Below are positions 28,108-44,900 of a stretch of DNA of 64,000 nt, piece by piece. Within the stretch, counting starts at the first letter, position 1. Each line of letters starts with the position of its first letter. A program made the translations under genes and the position numbers. The notes below the pieces were generated by a model. The model saw only the letters and a program-made list of their open reading frames with translations. It had not been told where the DNA came from and ran no database searches. Origin of the DNA: Candidatus Buchananbacteria bacterium (GTDB lineage: Bacteria; Patescibacteriota; Patescibacteriia; 2-01-FULL-39-33; JBAYJR01); contig JBAYJR010000008.1 of assembly GCA_041665005.1 (NCBI GenBank), positions 1,423-65,422 on the forward strand, given 5' to 3'.

Positions 28108-28129
28108 AGTTTAACCTCAACTAACAAGG

Positions 28130-28218
28130 CGGAGAGTACAGGATTCGAACCTGTGCGGCGTTTTTGAGACGCCCGCGGTTTAGCAAACCGCTGCCTTAAG
28201 CCGCTCGGCCAACTCTCC
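28130..28218 (-). tRNA. tRNA-Ser (anticodon GCU), type II with a long variable arm
   Basis: Hand-folded. Acceptor GGAGAGU, 3-bp D-stem GCC/GGC, anticodon stem GCGGU/ACCGC, loop UUGCUAA, a long variable arm, T-arm ACAGG-UUCGAAU-CCUGU and G73. Confidence 0.85.
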
Positions 28219-28226
28219 ATAAAATA

Positions 28227-28469
28227 TTAATTACCCAGTAACCACTTTAGACGCTCCCTGCCCTTGCCGCTTTTTAAAAACTTTTCCTCTTTTTGAGCGA
28301 AGTTTTTAGAAATAAAAGCTGCATAATAAACAAGCTGCCATGGTCCATTTTGCTTAGTGAACACGGAATTACCAGTCTTATGCTCAGAAATTCTTCTTTT
28401 TAAATCATTAGTAAAACCCTTATATAATTTACCGTTCTTTAAACTCTTTAATATATATACGTAATACAT
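28227..28469 (-). CDS. Small stand-alone GIY-YIG nuclease domain protein (copy 1)
   Basis: 80 aa. MYYVYILKS...GKLYKGFTNDLKRRISEH...GKGRERLKWLL shows the GIY...YIG motifs and the conserved Arg and Glu. Confidence 0.75.
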   Translation of the reverse strand: MYYVYILKSLKNGKLYKGFTNDLKRRISEHKTGNSVFTKQNGPWQLVYYAAFISKNFAQKEEKFLKSGKGRERLKWLLGN

Positions 28470-28483
28470 ATTAATTCACTCCC

Positions 28484-28535
28484 AGCCCGAGGCTGGTCGG
28501 CCTTGGGCCGAGGCCAACTCTCCCTAAAATTTTCA
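28484..28535. repeat. GC-rich hairpin element (copy 1) fused to a duplicated 5' end of tRNA-Ser(GCU)
   Basis: cccagcccgaggctggtcggccttgggc forms a 9-bp stem. It is followed by ggccaactctcc(c)taaaat, which duplicates the 5' end and upstream flank of the tRNA at 28203-28226. Confidence 0.55.
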
Positions 28536-28575
28536 CTATCTTATTCCTCTCTCTTCCGCTCATTACTACCCACTG

Positions 28576-28662
28576 CGGAGAGAGTGGGATTCGAACCCAC
28601 GGAACCAATTAAGGTTCGGCAGTTTAGTAAACTGCTGATTTAAACCGCTCATCCATCTCTCC
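28576..28662 (-). tRNA. Type II Ser-like tRNA whose anticodon loop I read as UUACUAA, i.e. anticodon ACU (unusual A34)
   Basis: Hand-folded, 87 nt. Acceptor GGAGAGA/UCUCUCC, G73, 3-bp D-stem GAU/AUC, anticodon stem GCAGU/ACUGC, a 5-bp-stem variable arm and T-arm GUGGG-UUCGAAU-CCCAC. Confidence 0.7.
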
Positions 28663-28769
28663 TGGTTATTCTTCAAACTTATCAAAACAACTAATGTAAT
28701 AACCACTATTGCATTTTAAACTACAAACATAGTGCCTAATTTTATCTTCCCGCCTTCGCTCGTTTTCTG

Positions 28770-28857
28770 CGGAGAGGGCGAGATTCGAACTCGCGAGACT
28801 CTTTTGAAGCCTAACGGTTTTCAAGACCGTCCCATTCAACCACTCTGGCACCTCTCC
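28770..28857 (-). tRNA. tRNA-Ser (anticodon UGA), type II
   Basis: Hand-folded. Acceptor GGAGAGG, D-stem CCA/UGG, anticodon stem ACGGU/ACCGU, loop CUUGAAA, a long variable arm, T-arm GCGAG-UUCGAAU-CUCGC and G73. Track ORF 28666..28851 overlaps it and is spurious. Confidence 0.85.
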
Positions 28858-28863
28858 AAATAA

Positions 28864-29115
28864 TTACTTCAAAGTATCAACTAACAAAAACTTAATTCTT
28901 TCTTTTCCTTTCCCACTTTTTAAAAATAATTCTTCAACTAAAGCATCTTTTTTACTAATAAACGTTTCATAATAAATAAGAACCCAAGGACTAAATGCTT
29001 TAGTCGACTTTACTTTTCCCCTATTATGATCAATTAGTCTTTGTTTTAAATCAGCAGTACTACCTTTATAGAGCTTATTTATTTTTTTACTTTTCAATAT
29101 ATAAACGTAATACAT
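28864..29115 (-). CDS. Small stand-alone GIY-YIG nuclease domain protein (copy 2)
   Basis: Paralog of 28227..28469 (MYYVYILKSKKINKLYKGSTADLKQRLIDH...GKGKERIKFLL). Start set at the internal ATG 29115, because the upstream part of the track ORF runs through the hairpin repeat. Confidence 0.7.
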   Translation of the reverse strand: MYYVYILKSKKINKLYKGSTADLKQRLIDHNRGKVKSTKAFSPWVLIYYETFISKKDALVEELFLKSGKGKERIKFLLVDTLK

Positions 29116-29137
29116 ATTATTATCTATGAGGTTTTTC

Positions 29138-29215
29138 GGCCCGAGGCCGACCAGCCTTGGGCTGGCAAGACCGTCCCATTCAACCACCCTGGCACCTCTC
29201 CAAATAATTACTTTT
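29138..29215. repeat. GC-rich hairpin element (copy 2) plus a duplicated 5' half of tRNA-Ser(UGA) with its upstream flank
   Basis: 29166-29201 matches the 5' end of the tRNA at 28822-28857 (36 nt, one mismatch), ending inside the anticodon loop. The following aaataattactt also matches the tRNA's upstream flank. The hairpin ggcccgaggccgaccagccttgggc precedes it. Confidence 0.7.
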
Positions 29216-29317: not shown

Positions 29318-30016
29318 TTAACCCTTAGCCAAAACTAAACCAAACACTTTACCCACTCCCGCTTGTTTTAAAACTTTAGCGCATTCTTGCATAGTTGAAC
29401 CTGTCGTATAAACATCGTCAATTAACAAAATATCCCGACCAACCAGATCAACTGCCTTTACCAGAACAAAGGCCTTTGTGATATTACCAAAACGTGATCG
29501 ATGTTTTAATTGGGCTTGTGGTTTGGTATAACGTTGACGCTGTAAAACTTTTTGCACTTGTGATGGCTCAAAAAAATTAATGGCTAAATTATAGGCTTGG
29601 TTAAAGGTCCGCCATAAATAACGTTTAGGGTGCAGTGGCACCGGCACCACGATAAAATTTTTAAAACTAAAATCGTTGGCTAGTAATAACGGTTTAAACT
29701 TTTGACCTAACAAATCCGCTACTTCTTGAATAAAATTATACTTAAAACTGGCAATAATATTTTGCCAGATCGGTTGAGAATAATTGCCCAAAAACCACAA
29801 ACCATCTAAATAATTTATTGGCTTAGCCAAACACTGGTGATTAACTTTTTGCAACTGCTGGCAAGCCGGGCAATAAAATTTTAAAATTTGGGATAACAAA
29901 TTAAAACATTTGGCACACAGCCACTTCCCCTCTTGACCGCAGTTAACACAACTGGCCGGGAATAATATTTCCAGACACTCCTGCTTGATCTTAGCTAACC
30001 ATGATTTTACTGCCAT
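29318..30016 (-). CDS. comFC: ComF-family phosphoribosyltransferase (competence protein ComFC-like)
   Basis: 232 aa. N-terminal double zinc ribbon (CVNCGQ...CAKC...CPAC) and a PRTase motif ILLIDDVYTTGSTM. Confidence 0.8.
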   Translation of the reverse strand: MAVKSWLAKIKQECLEILFPASCVNCGQEGKWLCAKCFNLLSQILKFYCPACQQLQKVNHQCLAKPINYLDGLWFLGNYSQPIWQNIIASFKYNFIQEVADLLGQKFKPLLLANDFSFKNFIVVPVPLHPKRYLWRTFNQAYNLAINFFEPSQVQKVLQRQRYTKPQAQLKHRSRFGNITKAFVLVKAVDLVGRDILLIDDVYTTGSTMQECAKVLKQAGVGKVFGLVLAKG

Positions 30017-30579
30017 TTGGCTTCATCCACCAACCATTGTGAACCAACTTTTAGTAACCTAACCACAATAGCTTGATAATAAATTTTATCTGGACCATTA
30101 GCACTTGCTTGCTGACGCTGAGTATTAACCAAAACACTGGCGCTATCACTGGTGATATTTTTAACTTGACTACTTAAGGCCTTGGTAGTAACTCCGCTAT
30201 AAATTTGTGCACTAGTCTTAGCCAAAGTTTTAATTTGAGTATTCAAATAATCTTGCCAACTTTTAGTTGCCACCAACTTTAATTCTTGTAGATTACTAAA
30301 ATTATTTTGATTAGAATAACTACCAAACCGTTCCGCGAAATCACTGGCCAACCTAGTCACCGAAACAGTCGCTAATTCGGTTTCGGACATTTTTTTAGCT
30401 GGCCCTGGCGAGGCCTGATTGTTGCTATTAGTTGCTGAGTTTAAATTAGTTTGATTAGTATTAGCATAAAATTGCGGTCGGGTAATAAAATAGTAAACCA
30501 ACCACAAAACCGCTAGACCAATTAAGGCTACCACTAAAACAATTATTCCTTGCTGACGTTTAGTAAGATTTAATTCCAT
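30007..30579 (-). CDS. Membrane-anchored hypothetical protein
   Basis: 190 aa with an N-terminal TM helix and a Ser/Thr/Asn-rich periplasmic domain. It overlaps the comFC start by 10 nt. Confidence 0.4.
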   Translation of the reverse strand: MELNLTKRQQGIIVLVVALIGLAVLWLVYYFITRPQFYANTNQTNLNSATNSNNQASPGPAKKMSETELATVSVTRLASDFAERFGSYSNQNNFSNLQELKLVATKSWQDYLNTQIKTLAKTSAQIYSGVTTKALSSQVKNITSDSASVLVNTQRQQASANGPDKIYYQAIVVRLLKVGSQWLVDEAKWQ

Positions 30580-30600: not shown

Positions 30601-32502
30601 TTAAAGATTTTTGGCTTCAGCCTGATTAATAGTTGCTTCGGCAAACTCTCTCTTGGCCGCTTCAATTTCTAATATTTGTCGCGGATCCGAGGTAATTAAC
30701 TGATCTTCGGTATAAGAGGCCACTACTTTAATCGCCGCGTGTTTATCACCGGCAAAAAATATTCCTTCACCCGGTGCACTTTCTAATAATAACAACTTTT
30801 CTCCCTGCGTTAGTAAAAAAGTTTTTTGCACCAAATCAATGGCCGCAGTAGATTGTCTAAGCAATAGCCGCAAAGAAGAATTAGTAATTACGGCCTGCCC
30901 CTCAGGTGATAATAAAAAATCATTAACATCCTGTGAAATAGTAGTCACCCCCAAATAGTAATGACGCGCCCGCTTAACTAAAGCATACAAAAATTTTGCA
31001 GAATCTTCATACATCATCAGCCACCAAGCCTCATCAATAATTAAAATACGTTTTTTTAATTCCGAACGAATCACATTCCAAATATAATAAATAATGGTAT
31101 AAATGGCCATGGGCCGTAATTCATCTTCTAAATCACGAATCGAAAAAACTACCAATTGACTACGCATTTCAACATTTGTTGGATGGTTTAATAAGCCAGA
31201 AAAAGTTCCTTCGGTATATTTTTTTAAACGTAAAGCCAAATCGGCTCCACCTTCCATCCCTTCTAAAATTTCTTGCAAATCCTGTAAAATTGGCATTTCC
31301 GGTTTAGTCTGCAAATCTGTTCCGGGGGTGATGTCTTTTTTGGCATAAGCTTCTAAAATCGCCCGATCCATAATTGAGTCTTCTTGGTGCGTAAATTGTC
31401 CCAACATTATTCGCAACAAACCTTTAATAGCAATGGAAGCGCTCAAAATAATATTAGCCGTTGTGCTTTCTTTTTCAACCGACAAGGGCAAATCAAACGG
31501 ATTAATTTTACTTTCCGAATTTAAGGAAACATTAATATAAGTACCGCCCACCGCCTCGCATAAATGCCGATATTCTCTTTCCGGATCAATAATGATTACA
31601 TCAGTGCCTAGCATTAGGCTACGCAAAACTTCTAGTTTAACTGCGTAAGATTTGCCCGCGCCCGAGGTAGCAAACACTACCATATTGGCATTGGGCAAAG
31701 AAAAACGATCAAATAAAATTAAACTATTATTGTGACGATTAATACCATACAAAACCCCATTATCAGAGGTCAGGTCAGCCGAAGCAAACGGAAAAAAAGA
31801 AGCGGCCGGCGAAGTATTCATATTAGCGGTAATTTGCAATTCATCATTTAACAACGGCAAAGTAGAATTAAAACCTTGTTCAGCTTGAAATAAAACTTTC
31901 TTAGAATAAACTTGGCGTGAACCAAAAATCGCTTCCACTCGATCAGTAATTTCCTCTAATTCTTCTTTACTAAAAGCATACAAGGTAACATAAATTGCCA
32001 CTTGAAAAAATCTTTCCACACCTTGAGTTAAATCATCCCGCAATTTTTCCATATCACGCAAGGCCGTTTCTCGCAACGGATCGCGAGGCGCACCTTTTTC
32101 GGCATCCGCTGATAACTGGGCCTCTAAATTACCTACTTTATTACGTAATTGTTTTAAAATAATCGCAGACTCCACTGGATAAAAATACATGGCAATATCC
32201 AAAGTAGAATCTAAGTTGATAATCGCATTAAACCAACCCATGCTAATATAACGCGGGTAAGTAATAACAAAAATTGTCCGTACAAAACGATCGTTTAGCC
32301 GTAAAAAATTAGCCGATACCTCAAATGCGGCCGGCGCAATTAAGTCCCGAATAGAAACTAAACCTTGTCGATAAATCTGTTCCTCTTCTAAGGTTACCTT
32401 GGCTTCTTCTAAGCTTTTGGGCGCTACCGCTTTAGCGCGGTCTAAAAAAGTACCGGCCTGATTATCCGCAATCTGATCTTTTATTTGTTTGGGGTCAAAC
32501 AT
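30601..32502 (-). CDS. VirB4/TrbE/CagE-family T4SS ATPase, C-terminal ATPase part
   Basis: 633 aa. Walker A FATSGAGKSYA and Walker B IIDEAWWLM (the DEAW motif typical of VirB4). Confidence 0.8.
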   Translation of the reverse strand: MFDPKQIKDQIADNQAGTFLDRAKAVAPKSLEEAKVTLEEEQIYRQGLVSIRDLIAPAAFEVSANFLRLNDRFVRTIFVITYPRYISMGWFNAIINLDSTLDIAMYFYPVESAIILKQLRNKVGNLEAQLSADAEKGAPRDPLRETALRDMEKLRDDLTQGVERFFQVAIYVTLYAFSKEELEEITDRVEAIFGSRQVYSKKVLFQAEQGFNSTLPLLNDELQITANMNTSPAASFFPFASADLTSDNGVLYGINRHNNSLILFDRFSLPNANMVVFATSGAGKSYAVKLEVLRSLMLGTDVIIIDPEREYRHLCEAVGGTYINVSLNSESKINPFDLPLSVEKESTTANIILSASIAIKGLLRIMLGQFTHQEDSIMDRAILEAYAKKDITPGTDLQTKPEMPILQDLQEILEGMEGGADLALRLKKYTEGTFSGLLNHPTNVEMRSQLVVFSIRDLEDELRPMAIYTIIYYIWNVIRSELKKRILIIDEAWWLMMYEDSAKFLYALVKRARHYYLGVTTISQDVNDFLLSPEGQAVITNSSLRLLLRQSTAAIDLVQKTFLLTQGEKLLLLESAPGEGIFFAGDKHAAIKVVASYTEDQLITSDPRQILEIEAAKREFAEATINQAEAKNL

Positions 32503-32511
32503 AAAAAATAA

Positions 32512-33216
32512 TTAGTCTACTCGCAATTCTTCGGGATTAGTCATTTTTTGTTTTTCGGCTAAATCCAAATTATAAGTATTATAAAATAATTCAATCAAAC
32601 TAACGGTGTCTAGTTGCGCCGCCCGCAAACCAATACCGGACAGCCCAGCCAAAACTTTTTCAATCCGCCGATCTAATTCGTGATAATAAGTGCGGAAACG
32701 TTGTTCTTCTAGGCGCAAAGCGGCGGTAGTAAAAAACAAAGAAGCAATCCTTTCCCAGAAACCGCGCCGTTTAAGCGCCTTAGAACTATAAGGCACGACC
32801 ACATAAAATCTTTTGGTCATAATTTGCCCCAATTTAATCAATTCCTTAATCGCTTGGCTATAATCAGCAATTTGCAATCTTAACAATTCATTGCTCTGTT
32901 GCCTTTCTTTTTTATTTAAATCAAGCAAATAGGCATCAATATTTAGTTGGCGCGACTGAATAACAATTTCCAAAGGAAAATCCAACATGTTTAAAAAACC
33001 AACATAATTGCCAATAATCGCCTGCTGTTCTTCTTCGGATTTTAAATCAAAATTAAGACTAGAAACCAACAACACGGCCCGCAAAGAGCCGTCCTTTAAA
33101 ATAACCGTATTTTCTTTAATTTCGGCAATTTCAACAAACCGTTGCGTCGTGGGCGTGGCCGCAGTGGCTTTATGAAATTTTAACGGCCGAGGGCCGGTAT
33201 TAATACTTTGCGCCAT
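32512..33216 (-). CDS. VirB4 N-terminal domain encoded as a separate ORF (split gene, or a frameshifted virB4)
   Basis: 234 aa. ...ENTVILKDGSLRAVLLVSSLNFDLKSEEEQQ... matches the conserved LKDGSL...D...EE block of the VirB4/TrbE N-domain. The stop lies 9 nt before the ATPase ORF's ATG, in a different frame. Confidence 0.55.
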   Translation of the reverse strand: MAQSINTGPRPLKFHKATAATPTTQRFVEIAEIKENTVILKDGSLRAVLLVSSLNFDLKSEEEQQAIIGNYVGFLNMLDFPLEIVIQSRQLNIDAYLLDLNKKERQQSNELLRLQIADYSQAIKELIKLGQIMTKRFYVVVPYSSKALKRRGFWERIASLFFTTAALRLEEQRFRTYYHELDRRIEKVLAGLSGIGLRAAQLDTVSLIELFYNTYNLDLAEKQKMTNPEELRVD

Positions 33217-33276: not shown

Positions 33277-33723
33277 TTATTTTTTAAGTTCCGAATTTTC
33301 CCCCGCATAATAGCCACCGGTATCTACAATTAAAGCCAATTCGGACAAACGAGAAACGCCAATCGCCTTTTTAAACATTGGCTGACTAGGGATTACTGGC
33401 ATTAAAGGTTGTTTTAGATAACTTTTTAGTTCCGCGGTGCTGTATTTTTTTCGCCAAATCCGTAATCGTGGTTTTTTAGAAGTTTCTACAAAATTGATTA
33501 AAAAATAATGAAAGGGTTGACCGTTGATTTTTAAAAACCCTAAAACCAAAACCAACAACCCTAAAACAATCGTCAAAAAAATAAAAAGGCCAATATCAGA
33601 AACTTTATATGCAATAAATTCTAAACCGCCGCCCACCACCAAAATAACAAACTGTCGGGTAGTAATCGGCCCAATAATTTTATCTTCTACTTCTAAAAAT
33701 TGTGGTACGGTAAATGCTTCCAT
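33277..33723 (-). CDS. VirB3/PrgI-like small membrane protein
   Basis: 148 aa. The N-terminus reads TVPQFLEVEDKIIGPITTRQFV and is followed by two TM helices. It lies immediately upstream of virB4, as PrgI/VirB3 do. Confidence 0.45.
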   Translation of the reverse strand: MEAFTVPQFLEVEDKIIGPITTRQFVILVVGGGLEFIAYKVSDIGLFIFLTIVLGLLVLVLGFLKINGQPFHYFLINFVETSKKPRLRIWRKKYSTAELKSYLKQPLMPVIPSQPMFKKAIGVSRLSELALIVDTGGYYAGENSELKK

Positions 33724-33766: not shown

Positions 33767-35098
33767 CTAATATTTTAGCTGCTTATTTAATTCCGCCAAA
33801 GCCTGAAATTCGGCTAAAGTTAAGGTCGGCTGATTGTTTTGCTGACGAAGGCTAATTGCCTCGCTTAATGCCTGACTAGCTAATAAGGCTTGCTGAATAA
33901 TTTGTAAATATAATTGATTTACCGGACTACTTTGCCAAGCCTTAATCCCTGCCACTTTTTTCGCAATCCCTTCGGTGGATAACAGTTCGATCTTACCACG
34001 AATTTTTTGGCGCGCTTGTTCCGGATCAGGGTTTAACCGCCGAAAATCAATCAAATCAAAGCCGGCTAATTCTTCCACTGGACCTACTAACTTTTTAGCA
34101 TATTTAATATCTTCAATCACCGGTTTTTGTGGCAATAAATCTGCGGACTTTTTAAAACCCGATGGCGCCTGTGGTTGGCCTGGTCTAGGATTAGCGTTAA
34201 CCGTTGCCATTCTTTTGGCCTGCATTAATTGATCGGTTTCGGCTACTTGATCGCTAGTCGCCAAAGTTTCCGAAGACTGCCGTAAACTTTCTAGGCTCCG
34301 ACGTTGACGATCAACAATAGTCAAAAGATTTTCGGCTTGTTCTTTGGTTAAACTTACCCCCCCGGCCGAAGCTTCATGCATTAAAAAGCCTCTAGTTTCT
34401 ACCCAATCACGAACACCGCGTAAATAAGTCATTAAAATATTAACCAACTTTTTTGTTAACTCCGGTGAAGTCAAGGTTAAACCGGCTAACTGAATTAACC
34501 GCTTGGCCTCTTGTTCTAAAATATTTGGTAAATTATCCCGTTGGCGAGCGCTATTCTGATTAGCTAATTTTTTTATTTCTTCCTCATCTTCCGGAAACAA
34601 ATGCCAATTAGAAACCGGCCGATCTAAATTTTCGGCGGATCTAACTATCCCCTGAGGCCGTGTAGGAAAAATTGTCGCCGGTAACTTGACTGGCTTAATT
34701 TCGGTTTTAGCTTCAACGCTAGTTGGCTGAACTATTATTTTGGATGTAATCAAAGGCGCCATTATCGGCTTAGTCGGTGTGGCCGGCGCTTTAACTTCAA
34801 TTTTAGATGCTGTTTTAATATAATTTAAATGCCCCAAAACCGGTTGAAAAATTTTATTTATTAAAATCGTTTTAATCTCTTTGGCTTGCTCAACGGTTAA
34901 GGTAAAATTGGCGGTTAAATAAGTTTCCAATTCTGCTAAAGCCACTTCCTGTTTGGCAATTTTTAAAACCAAATTAAAAGCATTGAGCTGATACTTATCT
35001 TTCAACTCTCTTAAAACCCGTTGGGCCGAAACATTAGCAATGGCTTGCCGCAAATTTGGCGCCAAACTATTAAATTTTGCCAAAACTTCTTCGGACAT
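33767..35098 (-). CDS. Hypothetical soluble protein (443 aa)
   Basis: Long ORF with no TM helices and no recognisable motif. Part of the T4SS-like operon. Confidence 0.4.
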   Translation of the reverse strand: MSEEVLAKFNSLAPNLRQAIANVSAQRVLRELKDKYQLNAFNLVLKIAKQEVALAELETYLTANFTLTVEQAKEIKTILINKIFQPVLGHLNYIKTASKIEVKAPATPTKPIMAPLITSKIIVQPTSVEAKTEIKPVKLPATIFPTRPQGIVRSAENLDRPVSNWHLFPEDEEEIKKLANQNSARQRDNLPNILEQEAKRLIQLAGLTLTSPELTKKLVNILMTYLRGVRDWVETRGFLMHEASAGGVSLTKEQAENLLTIVDRQRRSLESLRQSSETLATSDQVAETDQLMQAKRMATVNANPRPGQPQAPSGFKKSADLLPQKPVIEDIKYAKKLVGPVEELAGFDLIDFRRLNPDPEQARQKIRGKIELLSTEGIAKKVAGIKAWQSSPVNQLYLQIIQQALLASQALSEAISLRQQNNQPTLTLAEFQALAELNKQLKY

Positions 35099-35103
35099 AA
35101 TAA

Positions 35104-35598
35104 TTATTTTTTATCTTCTTCTTCCAAGGTCGCCTGCGCTAAAAAAGCCTTTTCTTCAGCCGAAATATCCGCCGGTAAATTATCTAAATTAAGGTTAGCC
35201 GAGGGTTTAGTTGAGGTTTGAACCGGTTTTACTGCGACTGGCTGATTAATTACGCTTGGCTGATTTGCTACCGCCGGTTTATTTGTTGTCTCTAAAACTG
35301 GTTCTGCTAAATATTCCTGGCGATTGGCCGTAATTTCCGGTAAAATTTCATACCAAACCTTATCATATAGCTCATCTTCAATTTCCAAGGCTGCTTCTTC
35401 CCCTGCTCCCAATTGTTCCACCAAAAAATCCACTACATCTTCCAGGGCTAGTTCCCCGCCTACCACCAACCAATATAAAGCCGACAGTTGTTTGGGTTCA
35501 GCTTTAAAAATTTCATACTTAGCCGGCAAAGAATTCAAAACTTCCTGCACCGCCGGACTTTGATAATAAGTTACTAATTTTTGTTCTTGATCTGCCAT
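35104..35598 (-). CDS. Hypothetical acidic protein (164 aa)
   Basis: ORF tightly packed between the VirB6-like gene and the 443-aa gene. Glu/Asp-rich. Confidence 0.4.
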   Translation of the reverse strand: MADQEQKLVTYYQSPAVQEVLNSLPAKYEIFKAEPKQLSALYWLVVGGELALEDVVDFLVEQLGAGEEAALEIEDELYDKVWYEILPEITANRQEYLAEPVLETTNKPAVANQPSVINQPVAVKPVQTSTKPSANLNLDNLPADISAEEKAFLAQATLEEEDKK

Positions 35599-35602
35599 AA
35601 AA

Positions 35603-38600
35603 TTACTTATAATATTTAATCAAACCCGAGAGTTCGTTCACGATGTCATCAATTTCTTCCTGACTACCAAACATCTTTTTCTGTTCAACTCCGGCCATAA
35701 AATTCTTCAATTCACTGCTAGCTCGGTCAAGTTTTTGTTTTTGACCAACATCTCCACTCTTTTTACTTACTTTATTTAAAGCTTTAATTCTGTTCTGTAG
35801 ACTATGCACAGTTTTATTTAAAACTTTGACATCTTTATCAAAATTTTTCATATTTAATGGCAAGCTAGACAAGCGACGAATACCCTCGGAAAAGGAAATT
35901 ATACTACGATCCAATTTAGGCAGAAAAGCTTGATTAATTTTGTCCTGCAGAATCGGATGCACCATTTGCCCCGCTACAGCCGCCGCCGTTTTAATCAACT
36001 TGGAATCACGATCTGTAACAGTTTCTCTTCTTTTTTGCTCTTCTTTGCCGGAATAATATTCATCAATCTTTTTTCTAAGGTCACCAAACAACATATAGGC
36101 GGCCCGATCATATTTTAAAACACTCGCCCCCGTATTGGCAATTTTCCTCACACCGCTCTTTTTATTTTCTTCTTCATAACGAATTCGTTCTAATGGCCGA
36201 TTAACCACGGTAAAACTATCGTCTATCGCCTTCTGATTATTTTTAGCTTCTTTAATGGCTTTTTCTTTAGTGTCTTTATTGTCTGAAAGAGTATCCCCTA
36301 AAGCGCTCGCTTGTTTATCAGTGGCCTTGCTAATATTTTCCAAATCCTTATAAACAACACTCTTCTCTTTTAAATAATCAGCAAAAGAATATTTTTCCTT
36401 TCGATCCGGCCTTAAAATATCTGTTTTAGCATCACCCTTAGAACTAGCCACCGACTCCATACTTACTCTTAATTCCTCAGCTAAATTTTTAATTTTTTCG
36501 TTTATCCCATAGGCCTGAATTTCCTCGCCTGGTTTTAATTTATCATAATTAAACTTAGCGGCCTGTTCTTTTAATACTTGCAATTCTTGCAAACGATCAT
36601 CCCAATTAGCCACTTTTAACTCTTTAACAAACATTTCTTCATTTTTTACTACCTCCGCATCCGCCGCAACATAATATTTTTCTTTATTGGCTCTAGTTTT
36701 TAAATCAGTGGACTCAATTTCTTCTCTACGCTTAACAACTTCATCACTCAACTTATTACCCGCTAAATCCTCAGCAGTTGAAATAAATTTAATACCAGTA
36801 TTTGGATCAAATCCCTCGATGTATTTTCTATCGGGGCTATCTAGCAAACCCTTAACATCACCTTTTGGAAGATTCATTGCTTCATAATCTATATTACTAC
36901 CACTATAGGCAACGGTAGCCATGTTAATTACCTTGTTCAAATCATCAATGGTATTTTTATTATTCAAATCAAAGCCTTCCTTGGCGAATAACTCCGGTTT
37001 AGCCAGCATATTTTTGACTGCCTCCATAATTTGCCGGCGACCAGCCGCACCTGCAAAACCCAAATTACCACCAGCTTTAATATAATCCGCAATACCCATA
37101 ATCTGTTGCGAAACATTAGCCCCCTTCATGCCCAAACTACTATTAGTAATCACAATATTAGACAAATCTTTTTCGGACATATTAGCCACTGTATTACGAA
37201 CAGAGTTTGCTCCAACTTCAGTGCCTACCAATTGTCCGTCCTCATTTTTGTAACCAGATACTCCCACTAAACCAGCATTTTTCCTGGTCGCCAATCTTTC
37301 CATATCATAAGCAAAGGTTTTAAAATCCGCTTCTGGAATATTAAATTGCTTTTGATATTTTTGTAAGCTTTCTCCTAATTCAGAGTCCCCTGCTTCGGCT
37401 AAAGAGGTAATTAAAGCCCGAGCCGTGCCAACATCTTTATTCTTTTTCAAAATTTCATGAGCGGCATTGGTGTTGGTAAAATCAAAACCGGATTTTTGTA
37501 AGCTATCGCGAGCCGCCATCTGTTCCTCTTGTCTAAATTTCTCAATGGCATCCGCTTTACCACCAAACTTTTGATTCATCTGAGCTTGAATTAACCGATT
37601 ATCGCGTTCAGTTTTCTTTTCATTAAAGCCCAACACCCCGCCAATTCGCGAATTAGCAAAACGATTATAAGAAGCCCGCGCCGCCGCCGGCACCCGAGTT
37701 TTTTCACCAAAATTTTTGGCAATTTTGGTACCTTTCTTTTGAATTTCCCCCATAGCTTTATTAGCTAATTGAGAACCAACTGTGCCAGCCTTACCAGCAG
37801 CAATTAAGGCGGCAATTAATAAACCAATAGTTAAAATTGAGACAAATATTTGCTCGGTTGAGGTGTTCAAAAAATCCCCCACACCTTCTCCTGTGCCCGA
37901 AACTATACCACCTACCACCTTAAACTTACTACTAATCTCGTCTTTTAAACTACCGGCCGTCACTGATCCCGTACTATCGGTTCCTGATGGACCAATCATA
38001 GCATTCAAAAAATTCATAGAGATAAACAAAAACAGGGCGATGGCTGGGCCAACCACTAAATATTTTGTGAAAGTTGACCACCACTGCCCTGAATAAGTTT
38101 GCAACGCCGGAAAAGCCGAGGCAAAATAAGCAAAAGGTGATAAAACAATTAAAAACCAAAAAGCGATTATTCTGGCTAAAAGTATAATAAAGAATATTAA
38201 GATAACTACACAAGCAATAACCGAGAATATGGCGGCAGTGGCGGCCTTAATAAAATCCTCAACACCATTGCCTAAAGCCACATTAGCTATGGCCATATAT
38301 CCTACATTAAAAAAAGCAAGAACGCCCACCTTTATTGCAATCGTATTGGTTAGTTGTTGTGCGTTACCAAGCAAAGTTAACATCACTACTTGTGAAGCAT
38401 CAATTAATAACCCCGTGAACATCTTAGAAAAATTTATCAAGATAGCCATTAACAAAACTTTGCCTAGCAACCTTTTGTAATTATAAGTTTCTACCCTTAA
38501 AATGGTGGCCACCGCAATCACTAATAAAAACACAATAAAAAAATTATTACACAAATCTCTAATAAAAACCCAACTTTGAACCACACCATCGGCATTAATA

Positions 38601-38896
38601 AAATTACTATATTCAGCCACAATGCGTAATAAAAATAAGAAAAAAGTCATCAATGTAGCAAACAGAACTCCTGTAGCTGCTAATATCTCCGTATAAGGAA
38701 ATAATACAGCCCCAAGTGCAACCTTTGTTATTCCAGCGGCAATCTGGCTACCTGTACCGGCTTCCTGTGTAGCTGGTGTTGTCCCAGCAGTCTGTGCCGA
38801 CGCTCCGGCCATTGGCAAAACTAGACAACTTAAAACCACCGCTCCCGCCACAAACGTTAAAACTTTCTTTTGATTATTTTTTAACCAGTGCTTCAT
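35603..38896 (-). CDS. VirB6/TrbL-like polytopic membrane protein with a large hydrophilic C-terminal domain
   Basis: 1097 aa. Signal peptide, then 6-8 TM helices in the first about 380 aa with conserved Trp residues, followed by about 700 aa that are charged and coiled-coil-rich. Confidence 0.55.
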   Translation of the reverse strand: MKHWLKNNQKKVLTFVAGAVVLSCLVLPMAGASAQTAGTTPATQEAGTGSQIAAGITKVALGAVLFPYTEILAATGVLFATLMTFFLFLLRIVAEYSNFINADGVVQSWVFIRDLCNNFFIVFLLVIAVATILRVETYNYKRLLGKVLLMAILINFSKMFTGLLIDASQVVMLTLLGNAQQLTNTIAIKVGVLAFFNVGYMAIANVALGNGVEDFIKAATAAIFSVIACVVILIFFIILLARIIAFWFLIVLSPFAYFASAFPALQTYSGQWWSTFTKYLVVGPAIALFLFISMNFLNAMIGPSGTDSTGSVTAGSLKDEISSKFKVVGGIVSGTGEGVGDFLNTSTEQIFVSILTIGLLIAALIAAGKAGTVGSQLANKAMGEIQKKGTKIAKNFGEKTRVPAAARASYNRFANSRIGGVLGFNEKKTERDNRLIQAQMNQKFGGKADAIEKFRQEEQMAARDSLQKSGFDFTNTNAAHEILKKNKDVGTARALITSLAEAGDSELGESLQKYQKQFNIPEADFKTFAYDMERLATRKNAGLVGVSGYKNEDGQLVGTEVGANSVRNTVANMSEKDLSNIVITNSSLGMKGANVSQQIMGIADYIKAGGNLGFAGAAGRRQIMEAVKNMLAKPELFAKEGFDLNNKNTIDDLNKVINMATVAYSGSNIDYEAMNLPKGDVKGLLDSPDRKYIEGFDPNTGIKFISTAEDLAGNKLSDEVVKRREEIESTDLKTRANKEKYYVAADAEVVKNEEMFVKELKVANWDDRLQELQVLKEQAAKFNYDKLKPGEEIQAYGINEKIKNLAEELRVSMESVASSKGDAKTDILRPDRKEKYSFADYLKEKSVVYKDLENISKATDKQASALGDTLSDNKDTKEKAIKEAKNNQKAIDDSFTVVNRPLERIRYEEENKKSGVRKIANTGASVLKYDRAAYMLFGDLRKKIDEYYSGKEEQKRRETVTDRDSKLIKTAAAVAGQMVHPILQDKINQAFLPKLDRSIISFSEGIRRLSSLPLNMKNFDKDVKVLNKTVHSLQNRIKALNKVSKKSGDVGQKQKLDRASSELKNFMAGVEQKKMFGSQEEIDDIVNELSGLIKYYK

Positions 38897-38906
38897 AAAA
38901 ATTTAA

Positions 38907-41900
38907 TTATTGACTAACCTTAACCGTGGGCCCTTTTTGCCAGGCATTAGTATCAGTACTGCAAGCATTTTGATAATAACCCCAAGCCGAGGTGCCAAAA
39001 GGAGCCAAAACTGCCGAACCAAGATTTAAATTACCGTTGCACCAGCCCCAATTATCTTTTACCTGAATAGCAATTGGCGCTGAACAAGTAGTACCGGAAC
39101 AAACGCCCGTGCCCAGGCTAACATTCTTTTTCATAGAATAATAATCATAGGTGTGATACAACACCACCGGCGTAGAGGAGCTAGAAGAATCGCGTAACGA
39201 CACACCGGAAACTGCTGTTTCGGTGCCATCGCCCCAATTAACTTTATAAGCAGTTAACGGCCATTGGTTGGCATCAATTGTAATATTAAATTCCAAACCC
39301 GCCGTTTGGGTGCCAACCCCCAAACTAACCACATCAGAAGTCTGCACGCCATTAACTTTTATCTTAGTCACCCGCGGCGCTAAGGCACAGTAATCGGCAT
39401 CTGGATCAGTCGCATCATAAGGTGGCCGAGTTAAATTTCGTTGATGAGTATCGGCACAAAGATTACCTTCATCAGGAACACTCCATAATTTTTTGTTGCT
39501 AATTTCATACTTTTTATCAGTCCAATTCCAACTCCATTCCGCATAAGCTTGGGCAAATAATCTTTTTAAAGAAATGGTAGCCGAATCAATAGTGGCGTAA
39601 GAGCCTTCAACAAAATTACTGGGATCAACGTTATATCCATTAATTGACCAATTACCCGCACGGTCAAAACCAACATTACCACAACCGCCATACTCGTTAT
39701 CGCAAGAATAAAATTCCCCCGCATGAGCCTTGCCACTATAAGTACTACTAGGATCGCCAGCGATATCTACCGGCAATAAAGACCAATCAGTCGGATTATA
39801 ATCCGGGCTAGGCGCTAAAATGCTGGCAAAAGGCGCATAATCATCGTTTTGCGAAAAATTCTGCACCGCGGTTTTATAACCACTGCCACTCGACACCCGT
39901 CCCAACCAGGCCTTGTTTTGACCATTAGGAGTTACCGTTTGAATAATATCCGTACAAAAACTAGCGGCCGTAACTGGCGGATCAGAAATAGTTTTGCTAT
40001 TAGTCTGACAACAATTATAACCAGACGCTTCCGTGCATTTTAGAGCTCTAACACATTCTCCGGAACCAGCCACAGTTAATAACTGTGAGCGATAAAATAA
40101 AATTTTACCAGTTAAGACCACCTCCGTCCCAGCTGCACAAGTAGCTGAAGTAAGATCAACATTATAAACATGGTTAGCATCTCCATCGCACAGAACATGT
40201 TGACCAGAACGGAAAGGTAAAGAACCGCTAGTTGCATCCTTGCTGATTACCGAATACCCATAATATTTCTGACCATTATTATCTGTATAAACTTCATCTT
40301 GATTATTATAAACAAAAGCCAAGCAAACATCAGAATCAGTGCTAATCTTTTGCACATCGGAGGCGTAACCAAAATAAGGCTCATAACCATCAACTGACAA
40401 ATAATAATATTTTGTAGCATCACTATTATCATAAGCTTGATACCAAGCAGTGGTGCCATATTTACTAGCCACTCCACTACAATTATTAGGATTATCGCCA
40501 CCTTCGTTCCAAGAAGCGGTAGCAATTATTCCTTCAAAACGTTTTTGCAAAAGTGTACCGGCCGCGCAGTAATACAACGGCGAACGACCGGAGTAACCAC
40601 CGTAGCTACCAGTTAACTCCCCTTTAGGCAAGTCAATTGGCCACCACTGTAAACAAATTTTGGTATTTTTACTGTCATATTGCAAGCAATAACCTTTTTG
40701 TCCGCGATAAGTAACATTAGTAGCAGTATTGGTATAATCACAACTTAAAGCTGAATCTTCAGGGTATAACCGACAATCGGTGGCCAAGATAGATTTACCA
40801 TTTATCTTTAAGGCGGGCTTCAAACGTAAATTAGCAAAATAACTTGAACCAGAACCCTCAGCAACCACCCCGGTGCTAACCGCGGGGTTAAAATTAGAAA
40901 GTTCTAGTCTTAATTGAGTGGTATTAGCAGAAGTTTTAATTCTAACGGTAAATGGCGTCCAGTCTTTTCTGGCCATCAAATAATAAACACTGTAAGCGCC
41001 ACGACTATTCATTCCAAAAGTATTAGTCGCACCATCATTAAATGTTTGGTCCAACAACCAAACCTGTTCACTGCTTGGTGAAATCCGCGGATTAGTGGTG
41101 GCGTCTTGATTTAAATAAACCTTAGTACCATTATTCTTTAATTCCCACACCTGAACCACCGCTTGAGCTGTGGCGGGATTTAAATTTAAAGTATTAATAT
41201 AACCAGACACCACGTATTCGCTGTCAGGAAACACGTCAATTAATTCTGACTCTACAATTACCGCTTCACCCTTTTCATAATCACCATAATTAACCTTTAG
41301 TACCGGCTTATTATTGGGTGAGGTAATGCCTTCGGTAATTAAATCTGAAGGATTGGTGATGGCCTTAAAATATTTAGTATTCCAAGAACCCAGCGTGCTG
41401 GCATTACACCAATTTTGTTTATACTCTTTGGGGGCTATATGATCATCGCAAACCCAAGAGTCGTAACAAATCTGACTAGCTTTATTAGAACAAGTATCAG
41501 AACTTAACGGCAACCAACCACGAGGCTGACCGTCGTCTTGCAGGTCCGTAAAATCACCATTTGGCACTTCGGTACTTTCACCTACTTGAGTCATTTGCGC
41601 AAACGGGAAATCGCCCGTAAATTTAGATTGATAACCAACCTTGGTATAGCCACTTAGATTGGCCACTAAACCCGGCTGGGTAGGATTATAATTTAATTCA
41701 GCCACTTCTTGATTTAAAACTTGCGAACAATTACCTTTTTCGTCCACCGCTTTGCATAAGCCCAAATCTAAACAAACATCTTTGTTGCGATTGGCCGTGC
41801 CAATATTACTGGTGCCATCGTTACTGGCAATGGAAGTTTTACAATATAACCAAGTATTACACACCCGATCCGGTGTAACTTTTAAAATAGTATTGCTATC

Positions 41901-44900
41901 GCAACGATTCCAAATATCCACTTGGCAGTTAGTGCCGGCCGTGCCATTACCATTGTTATCGGGATTAACCGGACTGACGTCGGAATCATAACCATTTTTT
42001 AAATAATCACTACTATGACTGATGGCGTAGCTATCGCGATTATTAAACAGCACGCAACCTAGGCCCGGATTAACCACACCGTTACAAGACTTAGCATCTA
42101 AATTATCCGCCAGAGTGTAGTAAGGATTATTTTCTACCAACCTTATTTCGGCTATCGCAAAACTGCTTTGTGTTGCTTTAATACCCAAAGTTAGTGCTGT
42201 TGCCTGACCAGTATAAACTCGACCACTAAAACTAACAAAATCACTCGGGTTAACCTGATCATTACCTACTACTAAATTGTAAGAATTATAAGCCGGAACC
42301 GCAACTAAAGAACCATCGGGAGAAGATAATTGATTAGCAACCGAACTGGTCACAAAAGTTTCAAATCTACCGCCTTCCCCAGCCAAAACCAATTTTACTT
42401 TAGCGGACAAAGTATATAAAGTATTAGCTTTAACTTTTAAACCACTGCCAGTAATCACATAAGTATTGCCAGAATTTAAAGCTAATTTACCAGCGCTATC
42501 ACTATAAGAAATTTCCGCCCCCGCTGCGGTTTTCCAACCACTAATATAATCTTGCCCCGCGGCCGTATATTTTTGACTAAAATCAGCGTTAAATACTAAA
42601 TTGGAACCATTAATTCCCGCTGGCTCAATTAATTCAGTGCAAGAATTTTGACTGGCCGGACATAACCCCGCGTAGCCGCCGGGTGAGGCAATAGTCGTTA
42701 AATCCACTGGTTGAGTCACTGGCGATTCAGAATAACCAACCGTATAAAGTGGCGAGGCGGAATAATTTGGACAGGGAATTAACACTTCACTACCCGCCGA
42801 ATTTTTACTGCGCACATACCAAGCCGGAGTAGTTAAACCGGCCTTAGTGATATATTCACAAGCCCGACCATTCACCGGGCCAGTGGTGGTGGCGGTATTT
42901 AACGGATTGCGGAAAAAGTAAGTATTATCATTGGCGGTAAATTTATCGCAACGGAAATAAGGATCTGAACAAAATACTTGCGTAGGACTATTCAAATCTA
43001 AAATTTTATAAGTGGTGCTATAAGTATTGACAACTGGGGCCGTCCAATCGGTTTGGTAATCTTTTTGCCCCACCGCCTGGCAACCCACCGCTTCGGCCGT
43101 GCAATATTTTTTACTGTCATTAACCCAATAAGAGATTGTATCCGCCGGCGCATGATAAATATAGGCCGAATCATTCCCGTTAGACAAATTTAAAGTTTGC
43201 GCTTCGGGCGAATTGGTGTTGGCGGTATCAATCAAGGCTTCACAACCCGCGGCATCAGCCGGACATAATTCACTAAACTGCCGGAAATACCAATTAACCT
43301 TATCAACATCTTGATATTGTTGACACCCCGCCATATAACCGGTAACGCAACGGGAAGGCGTACCTTCTGTTCCCCCGCAAGCGGCGCCCACCTGATCATC
43401 CAAAATATTATCGCAAGCCACCGGCACGTTCCAAGAATTTTTTATTAAATAAGTATTGCTACGAATCAACTTGATTAAAATATTATCTAAATACCAACCA
43501 GCGCTGGTAATTTTTAAAGCGGTGGTTAAATCACCAGTCACCGTCGCTGGCAAGGTGAAATTATTTTTATAAACTCCCCACTGCGTAGTTGATAAAGTAC
43601 TGCCAGTACCACTGATAGGATAAATTTGATAATCAATACCGGATAATTGCAAAGTCGGCTTAACATTGGCGTTGTAGGCTTTGGCAATAAAACTGATTTC
43701 ATATTCTTGACCGGATTGTAATACAAAATTACCCGAAGTAACATTACTAGCAATTATTTTTAAACTATGTCCACCAGCATAACTGGCTTCGGAGCTAACA
43801 TTAAAGCTACCAGTTGCTCCCGACCAAACCGGATTATTTTCAAAAGTATCTAAAAATATTTGTTTAGTATTATTGCCACTATTGCCTAAATATTGACGGC
43901 AACCGGCTAAATTAGCAGCACACTGATTACCTTCATTAGGCACCGCATAATACAAACACTCACTGCCATTCCACCAACCGGCCACACCTACCCAAGTACC
44001 GGCGGCATTTACACCACTACAATCTTGCTCGGCCGTGTTACCATTTTGCGGGTTTTGATTGTAATTATTGGTAGTGCGGCGATAAGGATGACAGTTTTCT
44101 GAAGAAGTAACCGTTAATGATAATTTACGTTTGTAATTAGCTCCACGCGTATCAAAAAATTCTCGGCAATCGCTGTCGGTAGCCGGGTCACAACTGTCCG
44201 TTGAATAAGTGGCTATTTCGTTACAAGCCGTCACGCTGGGTGAGCTGTAAGTTAAATGTGTGCACGGCGGATAACTGGTAATACCACTAGCCTTATCAGC
44301 CACGGCGGTATCGCTTTTTCTTAATTGATAAGTTTTTAATTGATAACCAGTAGTATCCGAACCTTCCCAAGTATAATAAGTACCCTCTGTAGCGGCGTTA
44401 GGTTGTTGACATAATTTTAACTTAGAATAATATTCTTTGCCTTCGCCGCCCCTAGCTTGTTCATCAACATTAGTAAATTCTTCACAACCAGCCGCTTCGG
44501 CCGTACAAGTTTTACCGTTATTAATTAAATATTGATTGCTTGGCGCGCTAAAAGTTGTCCCTTGTTCCACATAGTTAGCATAGCCCACACAACTTGCCGG
44601 GCATTGATCAGTACTATGCGTAATAGCCGAAACATCTGGATCACCATTAACCGGCTTATATAATTGACAGCCAATATCTTGCTCGGTGCAGGCGGTGGCA
44701 TAATTTACGCATTGCGCATTATCGTTGCTCTTTTTTAAACTGCCATCAGTATTATAATCATCACAATAATAATAAGCAGGCGGTTTGGTTAAATATAATA
44801 AATTTTTAGTGCCATAATCGGTAACCGCGCTAACCGCTGTTTCGTTACTATTTACTTCTTCCAAAAATATTTGATCTAAATAAATTTTGGCCGTGGCGCT

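What the first reader, a model, noticed from the sequence alone, without database searches (positions are those of the whole stretch)
30601..33216. VirB4 is encoded as two adjacent ORFs in different frames: a 234-aa N-domain and a 633-aa ATPase
ORF 32512..33216 carries the conserved VirB4/TrbE N-domain block (VILKDGSLRAVLLV...DLKSEEEQQ). ORF 30601..32502 carries Walker A and the DEAW Walker B. Together they are about 867 aa, the size of a canonical VirB4. The upstream stop TAA is followed 9 nt later by the downstream ATG in another frame. So this is either a genuine split two-subunit VirB4, or a recent frameshift/pseudogenisation of the central ATPase, or a sequencing indel.
Basis: seen in the sequence. 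Interest (0 to 1): 0.6.

Follow-up and report, generated by a model that had tools for sequence, protein, structure and literature searches.

The report
Conserved TrsD-like plus VirB4 gene pair
The "split VirB4" is real but ordinary: in this Patescibacteria (CPR) genome, as in every related genome checked here, the first ~200 residues of the secretion ATPase VirB4 are made as a separate small TrsD-like protein encoded just upstream of the ATPase gene, an arrangement already published.

Summary
Both ORFs exist exactly as listed: 32512..33216(-), 234 aa, and 30601..32502(-), 633 aa.

The split is not a frameshift, pseudogene or sequencing error.
- The 120 closest relatives of the 234-aa protein are all stand-alone proteins of 218-253 aa.
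- The 120 closest relatives of the ATPase are all 610-678 aa.
- In 79 distinct Patescibacteria loci the small gene always ends at its own stop. The ATPase gene follows in relative frame 0/1/2 = 24/28/27, with a median gap of 8 nt. None is fused.

The two products map collinearly and without overlap onto single-chain VirB4s. Against an 831-aa Bacillus mycoides plasmid protein they cover residues 26-198 and 236-826. So they are complementary pieces, not duplicates.

Gene order is PrgI/VirB3-like, then TrsD-like, then VirB4, as in trsC-trsD-trsE of Staphylococcus plasmid pSK41.

Quinonero-Coronel et al. 2025 (PMC12102498) already report TrsD homologues next to virB4 across Patescibacteria. They also report that the homologue in Southlakia epibionticum is essential.

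Verdict: a genuine, ancient two-gene arrangement that is already known. Interest is low. Physical assembly of the two proteins into one VirB4 unit is inferred, not shown.

The parts
32512..33216 (-). TrsD-like gene (234 aa). It is the stand-alone equivalent of the first ~200 residues of the N-terminal domain of single-chain VirB4.
   Evidence: ORF. It matches the NCBIfam models TrsD/TraD (NF041427, E 3.5e-7), VirB4_plasma (positions 93-235/894, E 4.9e-11) and CD1110 (positions 3-121/752). The exact protein P0001 carries a precomputed Pfam PF26593 hit, named 'TraC-like'. BLASTP against the fused B. mycoides VirB4 aligns it to residues 26-198, E 3e-9. Its 120 best homologues are 218-253 aa.
32503..32511 (-). 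9-nt spacer (TTATTTTTT) between the TAA of the TrsD-like gene and the ATG of virB4. It is in frame and has no obvious Shine-Dalgarno sequence.
   Evidence: Sequence and translation. In 79 related loci the median gap is 8 nt, 54 of 79 gaps are 20 nt or less, and 8 pairs overlap.
30601..32502 (-). VirB4-type ATPase gene (633 aa). It encodes the second part of the N-terminal domain plus the P-loop C-terminal domain, and lacks the first ~170-235 positions of single-chain VirB4 models.
   Evidence: Pfam hits PF19044, PF12846 and PF01935. NF045971 CD1110-family VirB4 scores 361 bits, above the 325 cut-off, at positions 169-730/752. VirB4_plasma matches at 282-892/894 and TIGR00929 at 236-725/792. 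PDB 4AG5 (VirB4 C-terminal domain) gives E 7.6e-49. The fused B. mycoides VirB4 aligns at residues 236-826, E 2e-74.
33277..33723 (-). PrgI-family (VirB3-like) small membrane protein gene (148 aa), directly upstream of the TrsD-like gene.
   Evidence: PF12666 PrgI, E 2e-9. The same position is occupied in L001 and L002. It parallels trsC in pSK41.
35603..38896 (-). Large polytopic membrane protein gene (1097 aa), a weak VirB6/TrbL-like candidate in the same gene string.
   Evidence: PF04610 TrbL gives E 9e-4, 19.5 bits, below the 25.9 cut-off. Large ORFs of 898-950 aa occupy the same relative position in L001 and L002.
33767..35598 (-). Two tightly packed ORFs of unknown function (443 aa and 164 aa) between the VirB6-like and PrgI genes. 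They are presumed cluster members.
   Evidence: ORFs, with no Pfam hit. ORFs of 426-569 aa without Pfam hits lie in the same position in L001 and L002. Their membership in the system is inferred from position only.
30007..30579 (-). 190-aa ORF with an N-terminal membrane helix, immediately downstream of virB4. It is a syntenic neighbour of unknown role.
   Evidence: ORF. ORFs of 194-227 aa lie at the same position in L001 and L002, each followed by a ComF-like phosphoribosyltransferase gene as in the window (29318..30016).

Best explanation
This is the conserved chromosomal T4SS core of a Patescibacteria (Candidatus Buchananbacteria) genome. In it, the VirB4 ATPase is encoded as two separate genes: a TrsD-like protein of 234 aa and a 633-aa ATPase. 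The TrsD-like protein corresponds to the first ~200 residues of the N-terminal domain of single-chain VirB4. The 633-aa protein carries the rest of that domain plus the P-loop motor. The break lies in a poorly conserved linker of about 37 residues in fused homologues. It was present in the common ancestor of the genomes sampled here and falls at the same point as the TrsD/TrsE break of staphylococcal plasmid pSK41. Shown here: the two genes are independent, conserved, adjacent, collinear with single-chain VirB4 and non-overlapping. Inferred: (i) they are co-transcribed and, given the 9-nt gap, probably translationally coupled; (ii) the TrsD-like protein binds non-covalently to the ATPase subunit and completes its N-terminal domain; (iii) by analogy with R388, that domain is the part wrapped by VirB3 (here PrgI) and the part that mediates VirB4 dimerisation at the membrane, so the small protein would link the motor to the PrgI/VirB6-like membrane platform. 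The confidence figure blends two levels: about 0.97 for 'genuine conserved two-gene arrangement, TrsD-like plus VirB4' and about 0.6 for the assembly mechanism.
For: The ORFs and the single in-frame TAA are shown. Stand-alone status: 1903 homologues were found, and the best 120 are all 218-253 aa, at 51-58% identity, with 35 invariant columns extending to the C-terminal ...LRVE(E)-stop. ATPase homologues are all 610-678 aa. In 79 loci covering lineages titled Buchanan-, Uhr-, Falkow-, Magasanik-, Nomurabacteria, Parcubacteria, Gracilibacteria and Saccharimonadales, relative frames 0/1/2 are 24/28/27 (chi-square p 0.85), the median gap is 8 nt and none is fused. In L040 a 1.2-kb insert separates two intact genes. 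Collinearity: the small ORF maps to NF045975 positions 93-235 (family members reach 282), CD1110 3-121 and TIGR00929 3-183. The ATPase ORF maps to NF045975 282-892, CD1110 169-730 and TIGR00929 236-725. Against the fused 831-aa B. mycoides plasmid VirB4 they cover 26-198 and 236-826. A profile-profile comparison of the small-ORF family with the N-terminal 270 aa of the ATPase family gave probability 0.2, so they are not duplicated domains. Foldseek of the AF2 model of the small ORF returned R388 TrwK/VirB4 chains as its top 7 PDB hits, but weakly. Synteny PrgI, TrsD-like, VirB4 holds in L001 and L002 and matches trsC-trsD-trsE in pSK41, with the same break point. Literature: TrsD homologues are the most abundant T4SS component in Patescibacteria, 1664 of 2272 lie next to virB4, and the one in S. 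epibionticum ML1 is essential (PMC12102498). The Southlakia T4SS is essential (PMC10633639). In R388, VirB3 wraps the VirB4 N-terminal domain (residues 15-400) and dimerisation runs through that domain (PMC9259494).
Against: No direct evidence here that the two proteins bind each other. The AF2 model of the concatenated pair was poor (pLDDT 56, pTM 0.31), so it says nothing about docking. The structural match of the small ORF to TrwK is weak (E 0.027, TM 0.34), and the tool does not report which TrwK residues align. A profile of the small-ORF family found no PDB VirB4 by sequence. [quoted passage not shown] L023 has no virB4 within 4 kb downstream. No Shine-Dalgarno sequence is visible in the 9-nt spacer, so how translation of the ATPase gene starts is unknown.
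Confidence: 0.8

Rival explanations
1. A recent nonsense mutation (pseudogenisation) or a base-call error turned a single ~870-aa virB4 into two ORFs in this genome.
For: In this window the two ORFs happen to be in frame, with a single TAA between them. One substitution would therefore fuse them.
Against: The stop lies at the conserved C-terminus of a family whose 120 best members are all 218-253 aa. None of 79 related loci is fused. Relative frames are uniformly distributed (24/28/27), so an in-frame case is expected about one time in three. The other Buchananbacteria-titled loci, L014 and L044, are out of frame, with gaps of 5 and 2 nt. The ATPase ORF starts with MF.P, like its homologues.
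Confidence: 0.02
2. The TrsD-like protein is an independent accessory factor, such as an assembly chaperone, regulator or adaptor to other T4SS parts. It descends from a VirB4 N-terminus but does not function as part of the VirB4 fold. The 633-aa ATPase would then work as a naturally N-terminally short VirB4.
For: The literature assigns no function to TrsD. Its homologues in Gracilibacteria are usually not next to virB4. The small ORF evolves faster than the ATPase, at 51-58% versus 69-76% identity among best hits. Some loci have long spacers or no adjacent virB4. Docking could not be modelled.
Against: The two products map exactly collinearly and without overlap onto several single-chain VirB4 models, with the break at one model position (about 282 of NF045975). 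The ATPase ORF lacks precisely the segment the small ORF supplies. The small gene sits between the VirB3-like gene and virB4 in nearly all loci, mostly with gaps of 20 nt or less. The homologue is reported essential alongside the T4SS in Southlakia.
Confidence: 0.17
3. Programmed read-through of the in-frame TAA produces a fused 871-aa VirB4 isoform in this organism.
For: The arrangement is in frame with only three sense codons (L-F-F) between the stop and the ATG.
Against: Two thirds of related loci are out of frame. Some in-frame ones carry a second in-frame stop in the spacer, for example L033 (TGA-TAA) and L045 (TAA-TAG). TAA is the most efficient bacterial terminator (general knowledge). 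No conserved spacer sequence is visible across loci.
Confidence: 0.01

Closest known systems
TrsD + VirB4 pairs of the Patescibacteria T4SS (Quinonero-Coronel et al. 2025, Microb Genom, PMC12102498; essential T4SS of Ca. Southlakia epibionticum, Wang et al. 2023, PMC10633639)
   Same: The phylum, the gene pair and the adjacency are the same. That paper reports 2272 TrsD homologues, 1664 of them associated with virB4. It describes TrsD as remotely homologous to the VirB4 N-terminal portion and finds PrgI/VirB3 and VirB6 homologues nearby. The window's locus is one more instance, and the exact proteins are already in NCBI as a Buchananbacteria MAG.
   Different: Nothing substantive differs. This analysis adds three things: the explicit collinear, non-overlapping mapping of the pair onto single-chain VirB4s; the frame and gap statistics over 79 loci; and the coincidence that in this genome the two genes are in frame.
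TrsC-TrsD-TrsE of Staphylococcus plasmids pSK41/pGO1 (NCBIfam NF041427 also names TraD in this family; I did not examine pIP501)
   Same: The order and sizes match. pSK41 has a VirB3-like 135-aa gene, then TrsD (227 aa), then a DUF87 VirB4-like gene (672 aa). The window has 148, 234 and 633 aa. The break point is the same: the small ORF residues 13-217 align to TrsD 23-225, and the ATPase ORF from residue 53 aligns to TrsE from residue 36.
   Different: Sequence similarity is very low (21-23% identity; small ORF versus TrsD E 0.003). The pSK41 system is plasmid-borne, conjugative and has a relaxase and a coupling protein. The window's locus is chromosomal and syntenic with ComF-like and RecG genes in other genomes, and I found no relaxase or coupling-protein gene in the ORFs I scanned.
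Single-chain VirB4 ATPases (CD1110 family NF045971; Mycoplasma ICE VirB4 NF045975; classical VirB4/CagE TIGR00929; R388 TrwK, PDB 7O41/8RTB)
   Same: The domain content and order match when the two window proteins are read together. The C-terminal ATPase domain is clearly homologous: 4AG5 gives E 7.6e-49 and TrwK gives E 1.2e-5.
   Different: Those proteins are one polypeptide of about 750-900 aa. Here the first ~200 residues are a separate gene product.
Split and fused forms in Bacillota plasmids (Pontibacillus sp. NZ_CP062975; Bacillus mycoides NZ_CP036106)
   Same: Pontibacillus has a 274-aa stand-alone homologue overlapping by 11 nt a 621-aa CD1110-family VirB4, the same split as here. B. 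mycoides has the fused 831-aa version.
   Different: These are plasmid-borne and at most 30% identical to the small ORF.

Membership tests
TrsD/TraD family (NCBIfam NF041427; Pfam PF26593 'TraC-like') | Sequence match to the family model | tested here: met
   NF041427 gives E 3.5e-7 at 30 bits, which is significant but far below the curated 200-bit cut-off built on Bacillota members. All 25 of 25 family members hit it, best E 5.9e-10. The exact protein P0001 and all 120 best homologues carry a precomputed PF26593 hit. My local Pfam copy did not return PF26593.
TrsD/TraD family (NCBIfam NF041427; Pfam PF26593 'TraC-like') | Stand-alone protein of about 200-230 aa encoded between a VirB3-like gene and a VirB4-like ATPase gene | tested here: met
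   In the window the sizes are 148 aa (PrgI), 234 aa and 633 aa. pSK41 has 135 aa, TrsD 227 aa and 672 aa. L001 and L002 have the same order.
TrsD/TraD family (NCBIfam NF041427; Pfam PF26593 'TraC-like') | Homology to the N-terminal portion of VirB4 | tested here: met
   NF045975 positions 93-235, E 4.9e-11. TIGR00929 positions 3-183 in family members, best E 2.9e-7. Fused B. mycoides VirB4 residues 26-198, E 3e-9.
VirB4 ATPase family (the 633-aa ORF) | P-loop NTPase domain with Walker A and Walker B motifs, homologous to the VirB4 C-terminal domain | tested here: met
   SGAGKSY and IIDEAWW are visible in the sequence. PF19044 gives E 7.7e-27. NF045971 scores 361 bits, above the 325 cut-off. 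PDB 4AG5 gives E 7.6e-49.
VirB4 ATPase family (the 633-aa ORF) | Complete N-terminal domain on the same polypeptide (R388 TrwK residues 15-400) | tested here: not met
   The 633-aa ORF aligns only from position 169/752 (CD1110), 282/894 (VirB4_plasma) and 236/792 (TIGR00929). The missing part is supplied by the small ORF.
Patescibacteria T4SS (clade nested in MPF_FATA, PMC12102498) | VirB4 accompanied by TrsD, VirB3/PrgI and VirB6 homologues in a chromosomal cluster | tested here: met
   PrgI gives E 2e-9. The VirB6/TrbL-like match is only weak (E 9e-4, below cut-off). The cluster is syntenic with L001 and L002, including the ComF-like and RecG neighbours. Best homologues are all from Patescibacteria MAGs. 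I did not build a VirB4 tree.
Patescibacteria T4SS (clade nested in MPF_FATA, PMC12102498) | Function: required for epibiotic growth; substrate unknown | not testable with these tools
   Known only from Tn-seq in S. epibionticum ML1.
Frameshifted or nonsense pseudogene of virB4 | Interruption absent from orthologues; different frames or a decayed downstream part | tested here: not met
   The interruption is present in 79 of 79 loci. The two ORFs are in the same frame. Both ORFs are intact and strongly conserved.

The most novel reading that the evidence does not exclude
Splitting the first half of the VirB4 N-terminal domain into its own gene could let the cell set its stoichiometry or timing independently of the motor. 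For example, only the 'central' VirB4 subunits, the ones that bind VirB3 in R388, might receive a TrsD-like subunit. That would make TrsD a regulated assembly switch for an essential, non-conjugative T4SS. My evidence neither supports nor excludes this.
Probability: 0.08. Interest if true: 0.5.

Novelty: already known. Interest (0 to 1): 0.12.

Why it matters
For annotation, it shows that this locus should not be flagged as a virB4 pseudogene or an assembly error. The small ORF, 'hypothetical protein' in the public record, can be named a TrsD-like VirB4 N-terminal subunit. Biologically, the Patescibacteria T4SS is reported essential for the epibiotic lifestyle, and the role of TrsD is still unassigned in any system. 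The collinear mapping shown here gives a concrete, testable hypothesis: TrsD completes the VirB4 N-terminal domain and links it to VirB3/PrgI. The arrangement itself is not new.

Tried and rejected
1. AF2 of the concatenated small ORF plus ATPase ORF. MAFFT could not make a clean block alignment. In A3 the short homologues were torn in two. A5 was better but still dragged tails. The model was poor (pLDDT 56, pTM 0.31), so it gives no information on docking.

3. A profile of the small-ORF family against PDB sequences found no VirB4, only chance-level hits.

4. Idea tested and rejected: that the small ORF duplicates the ATPase ORF's own N-terminal region, because both show a similar-looking strand motif. 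hhalign gave probability 0.2, so there is no detectable relationship.

5. The local Pfam scan of the small ORF returned nothing relevant even at E 10, although the precomputed annotation lists PF26593.

6. 'TrsD' does not occur in the main text of Guglielmini et al. 2014. The statement that TrsD resembles the VirB4 N-terminus is therefore cited only through PMC12102498.

7. The promoter and terminator scan gave nothing informative for the 9-nt junction.
Full report
**Observation**

The two ORFs are present exactly as described: 32512..33216(-) of 234 aa and 30601..32502(-) of 633 aa. The junction reads ...GTA GAC TAA tta ttt ttt ATG TTT... on the minus strand. Both start coordinates are 0 mod 3, and a single-frame translation of 30601-33216 gives ...ELRVD*LFFMFDP... 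with one in-frame TAA. The alternative to test is therefore a nonsense codon or base error, not an indel.

**What the two proteins are**

The 633-aa ORF is a VirB4-type ATPase.
- Pfam gives P-loop_TraG (E 7.7e-27), AAA_10 and DUF87.
- The NCBIfam 'VirB4-like conjugal transfer ATPase, CD1110 family' model scores 361 bits, above its 325-bit cut-off.
- The crystal structure of the Thermoanaerobacter VirB4 C-terminal domain (4AG5) matches at E 7.6e-49, and R388 TrwK at 1.2e-5.
- It aligns to full-length VirB4 models only from position 169/752 (CD1110), 282/894 (Mycoplasma ICE VirB4) and 236/792 (TIGR00929). So it lacks the first ~170-235 positions of a single-chain VirB4.

The 234-aa ORF matches exactly that missing part.
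- It hits NF045975 positions 93-235 (E 4.9e-11) and CD1110 positions 3-121.
- Other members of its family reach NF045975 position 282 and TIGR00929 positions 3-183.
- It also hits the TrsD/TraD family model (E 3.5e-7).
- Of 25 family members, 25 hit VirB4_plasma, 25 hit TrsD, 22 hit CD1110 and 8 hit TIGR00929.
- The precomputed Pfam label for this protein and all its relatives is PF26593 'TraC-like'.

**Is the split real?**

A search with the 234-aa protein found 1903 homologues. The best 120 (51-58% identity) are all stand-alone proteins of 218-253 aa. Those that carry an organism name come from Patescibacteria MAGs, and the 100% match is a 'hypothetical protein' of a Candidatus Buchananbacteria MAG. 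An alignment of 25 of them has 35 invariant columns and a conserved C-terminus (...LDTQSLIELYYNTYNP...LRVEE-stop), so the stop is at the family's normal end. The best 120 homologues of the ATPase ORF (69-76% identity) are all 610-678 aa, and none is near 870 aa.

I fetched 80 loci from different species-level genomes plus two from metagenomes. In each I located the stop of the small gene and the start of the ATPase gene. Results for 79 distinct loci, including the window:
- None has the two genes fused.
- Relative frames 0/1/2 are 24/28/27 (chi-square p 0.85).
- The median gap is 8 nt, 54 of 79 gaps are 20 nt or less, 8 pairs overlap and 9 gaps exceed 100 nt.

The window's in-frame state is therefore the one-in-three coincidence expected by chance. 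The other Buchananbacteria-titled loci (L014, L044) are out of frame. In L040 a 1.2-kb GC-rich insert with a 316-aa ORF lies between two intact genes. These facts exclude a recent nonsense mutation, a frameshift and a sequencing error. They show that both genes are maintained independently.

**Complementary pieces or a paralogue?**

A tblastn search of plasmids found homologues of the small ORF in Bacillota.
- In a Pontibacillus megaplasmid the homologue is a separate 274-aa gene overlapping by 11 nt a 621-aa CD1110-family VirB4.
- In a Bacillus mycoides plasmid it is the N-terminus of a single 831-aa DUF87 protein.

Against that fused protein, small-ORF residues 23-216 align to 26-198 (E 3e-9) and ATPase-ORF residues 44-617 align to 236-826 (E 2e-74). 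The junction corresponds to a linker of about 37 residues. A profile-profile comparison of the small-ORF family with the first 270 residues of the ATPase family shows no relationship (probability 0.2). The two products are thus successive, non-overlapping segments of the VirB4 architecture.

An AF2 model of the small ORF (pLDDT 71, core 80-90) gave R388 TrwK/VirB4 chains as its top seven Foldseek hits in the PDB. The scores are weak (E 0.027, probability 0.93, TM 0.34). I treat this as consistent with the sequence evidence, not as independent proof.

**Context**

The genes lie in a tight minus-strand string:
- a 2862-aa ORF
- a 1097-aa polytopic membrane protein (weak TrbL/VirB6 hit)
- 164-aa and 443-aa ORFs of unknown function
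- PrgI/VirB3-like (148 aa)
- TrsD-like (234 aa)
- VirB4 (633 aa)
- a 190-aa membrane protein
- a ComF-like phosphoribosyltransferase

The order PrgI, TrsD-like, VirB4, a ~200-aa ORF, ComF-like, then RecG further on, recurs in L001 and L002. This indicates a chromosomal, vertically inherited locus rather than a mobile element. The same core order and the same break point occur in S. aureus plasmid pSK41: a 135-aa TrsC-position gene, TrsD (227 aa), then TrsE (672 aa, DUF87).

**What is already known**

Quinonero-Coronel et al. 2025 (PMC12102498) report the following.
- Most Patescibacteria VirB4s form one clade nested in MPF_FATA.
[quoted passage not shown] There were 2272 homologues in 2221 assemblies, 1664 of them associated with virB4, with Gracilibacteria as the exception.
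- The TrsD homologue of Ca. Southlakia epibionticum ML1 is listed as essential.

Wang et al. 2023 (PMC10633639) showed that the Southlakia T4SS is essential. It lacks a recognisable relaxase and coupling protein. The finding is therefore one more instance of a published arrangement.

**Mechanism (inferred)**

In the R388 cryo-EM structure the VirB4 N-terminal domain spans residues 15-400. VirB3 wraps around it, and it alone mediates the central/outside VirB4 dimer (PMC9259494). The small ORF corresponds to roughly the first half of that domain and is encoded between the VirB3-like gene and the ATPase gene. The most likely model is that it binds the ATPase subunit non-covalently, completes its N-terminal domain, and so couples the motor to PrgI and the membrane platform. 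The short gaps and overlaps suggest co-transcription and translational coupling.

I could not test the interaction. The concatenated-chain AF2 model was poor because a clean block alignment could not be built, and coordinates and PAE values are not exposed by the tool. The main rival is that TrsD-like proteins are accessory factors that merely descend from a VirB4 N-terminus. It stays open at about 0.17.

**Verdict**

The 'genuine split' option is supported, and the pseudogene and error options are refuted. The novelty class is 'already known' and interest is low (0.12).

Noticed in passing
window 28575-28662 (-): ARAGORN calls a tRNA-Ser with anticodon ACT. Reading the sequence confirms a 7-nt loop, T-T-A-C-T-A-A, between the stems GCAGT and ACTGC. 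An A34 Ser tRNA is unusual, and a normal tRNA-Ser(GCT) lies 360 nt away at 28128-28218.
   Followed up: partly
window 28128-29187 (-): Three tRNA-Ser genes (gct, act, tga) are interleaved with two small GIY-YIG-domain ORFs: 28227..28469 (80 aa) and 28864..29187 (107 aa), with PF01541 E values around 1e-15 and 1e-14. This could be a small mobile or duplicated tRNA/GIY-YIG module.
   Followed up: no
window 38907-47495 (-): A giant 2862-aa ORF with no Pfam hit at E 0.001 or better lies directly upstream of the VirB6/TrbL-like 1097-aa ORF, in the same gene string as the T4SS genes.
   Followed up: no
L040:4637-5846; L023 downstream of 4636; L039 and L012 spacers: In some relatives the spacer between the TrsD-like gene and virB4 is long. 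L040 has a 1.2-kb GC-rich insert with a 316-aa ORF and many overlapping ORFs. L023 has no virB4 within 4 kb. L039 and L012 have short tandem repeats (cgcataa..., ggtggttag...) right after the stop.
   Followed up: partly
loci L004-L075 (record titles): Many GTDB-representative MAG records that carry this Patescibacteria-type locus are titled 'uncultured Gammaproteobacteria bacterium'. This looks like a submitter placeholder or a mislabel rather than real taxonomy.
   Followed up: no
plasmid hits H1-H30; L083, L084: Homologues of the small ORF occur on large Bacillota plasmids, 40 of 49 of which MOB-suite types as 'non-mobilizable'. Yet the two regions I examined, Pontibacillus (non-mobilizable megaplasmid) and B. 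mycoides, carry VirB4-like, pilin-like and cell-wall-hydrolase genes nearby. Both split and fused VirB4 forms exist there.
   Followed up: partly
window 32512-33216 (-): The local Pfam-A scan returns no hit for the small ORF even at E 10. The precomputed annotation of the identical protein lists PF26593 'TraC-like'. The local library probably predates that model.
   Followed up: no
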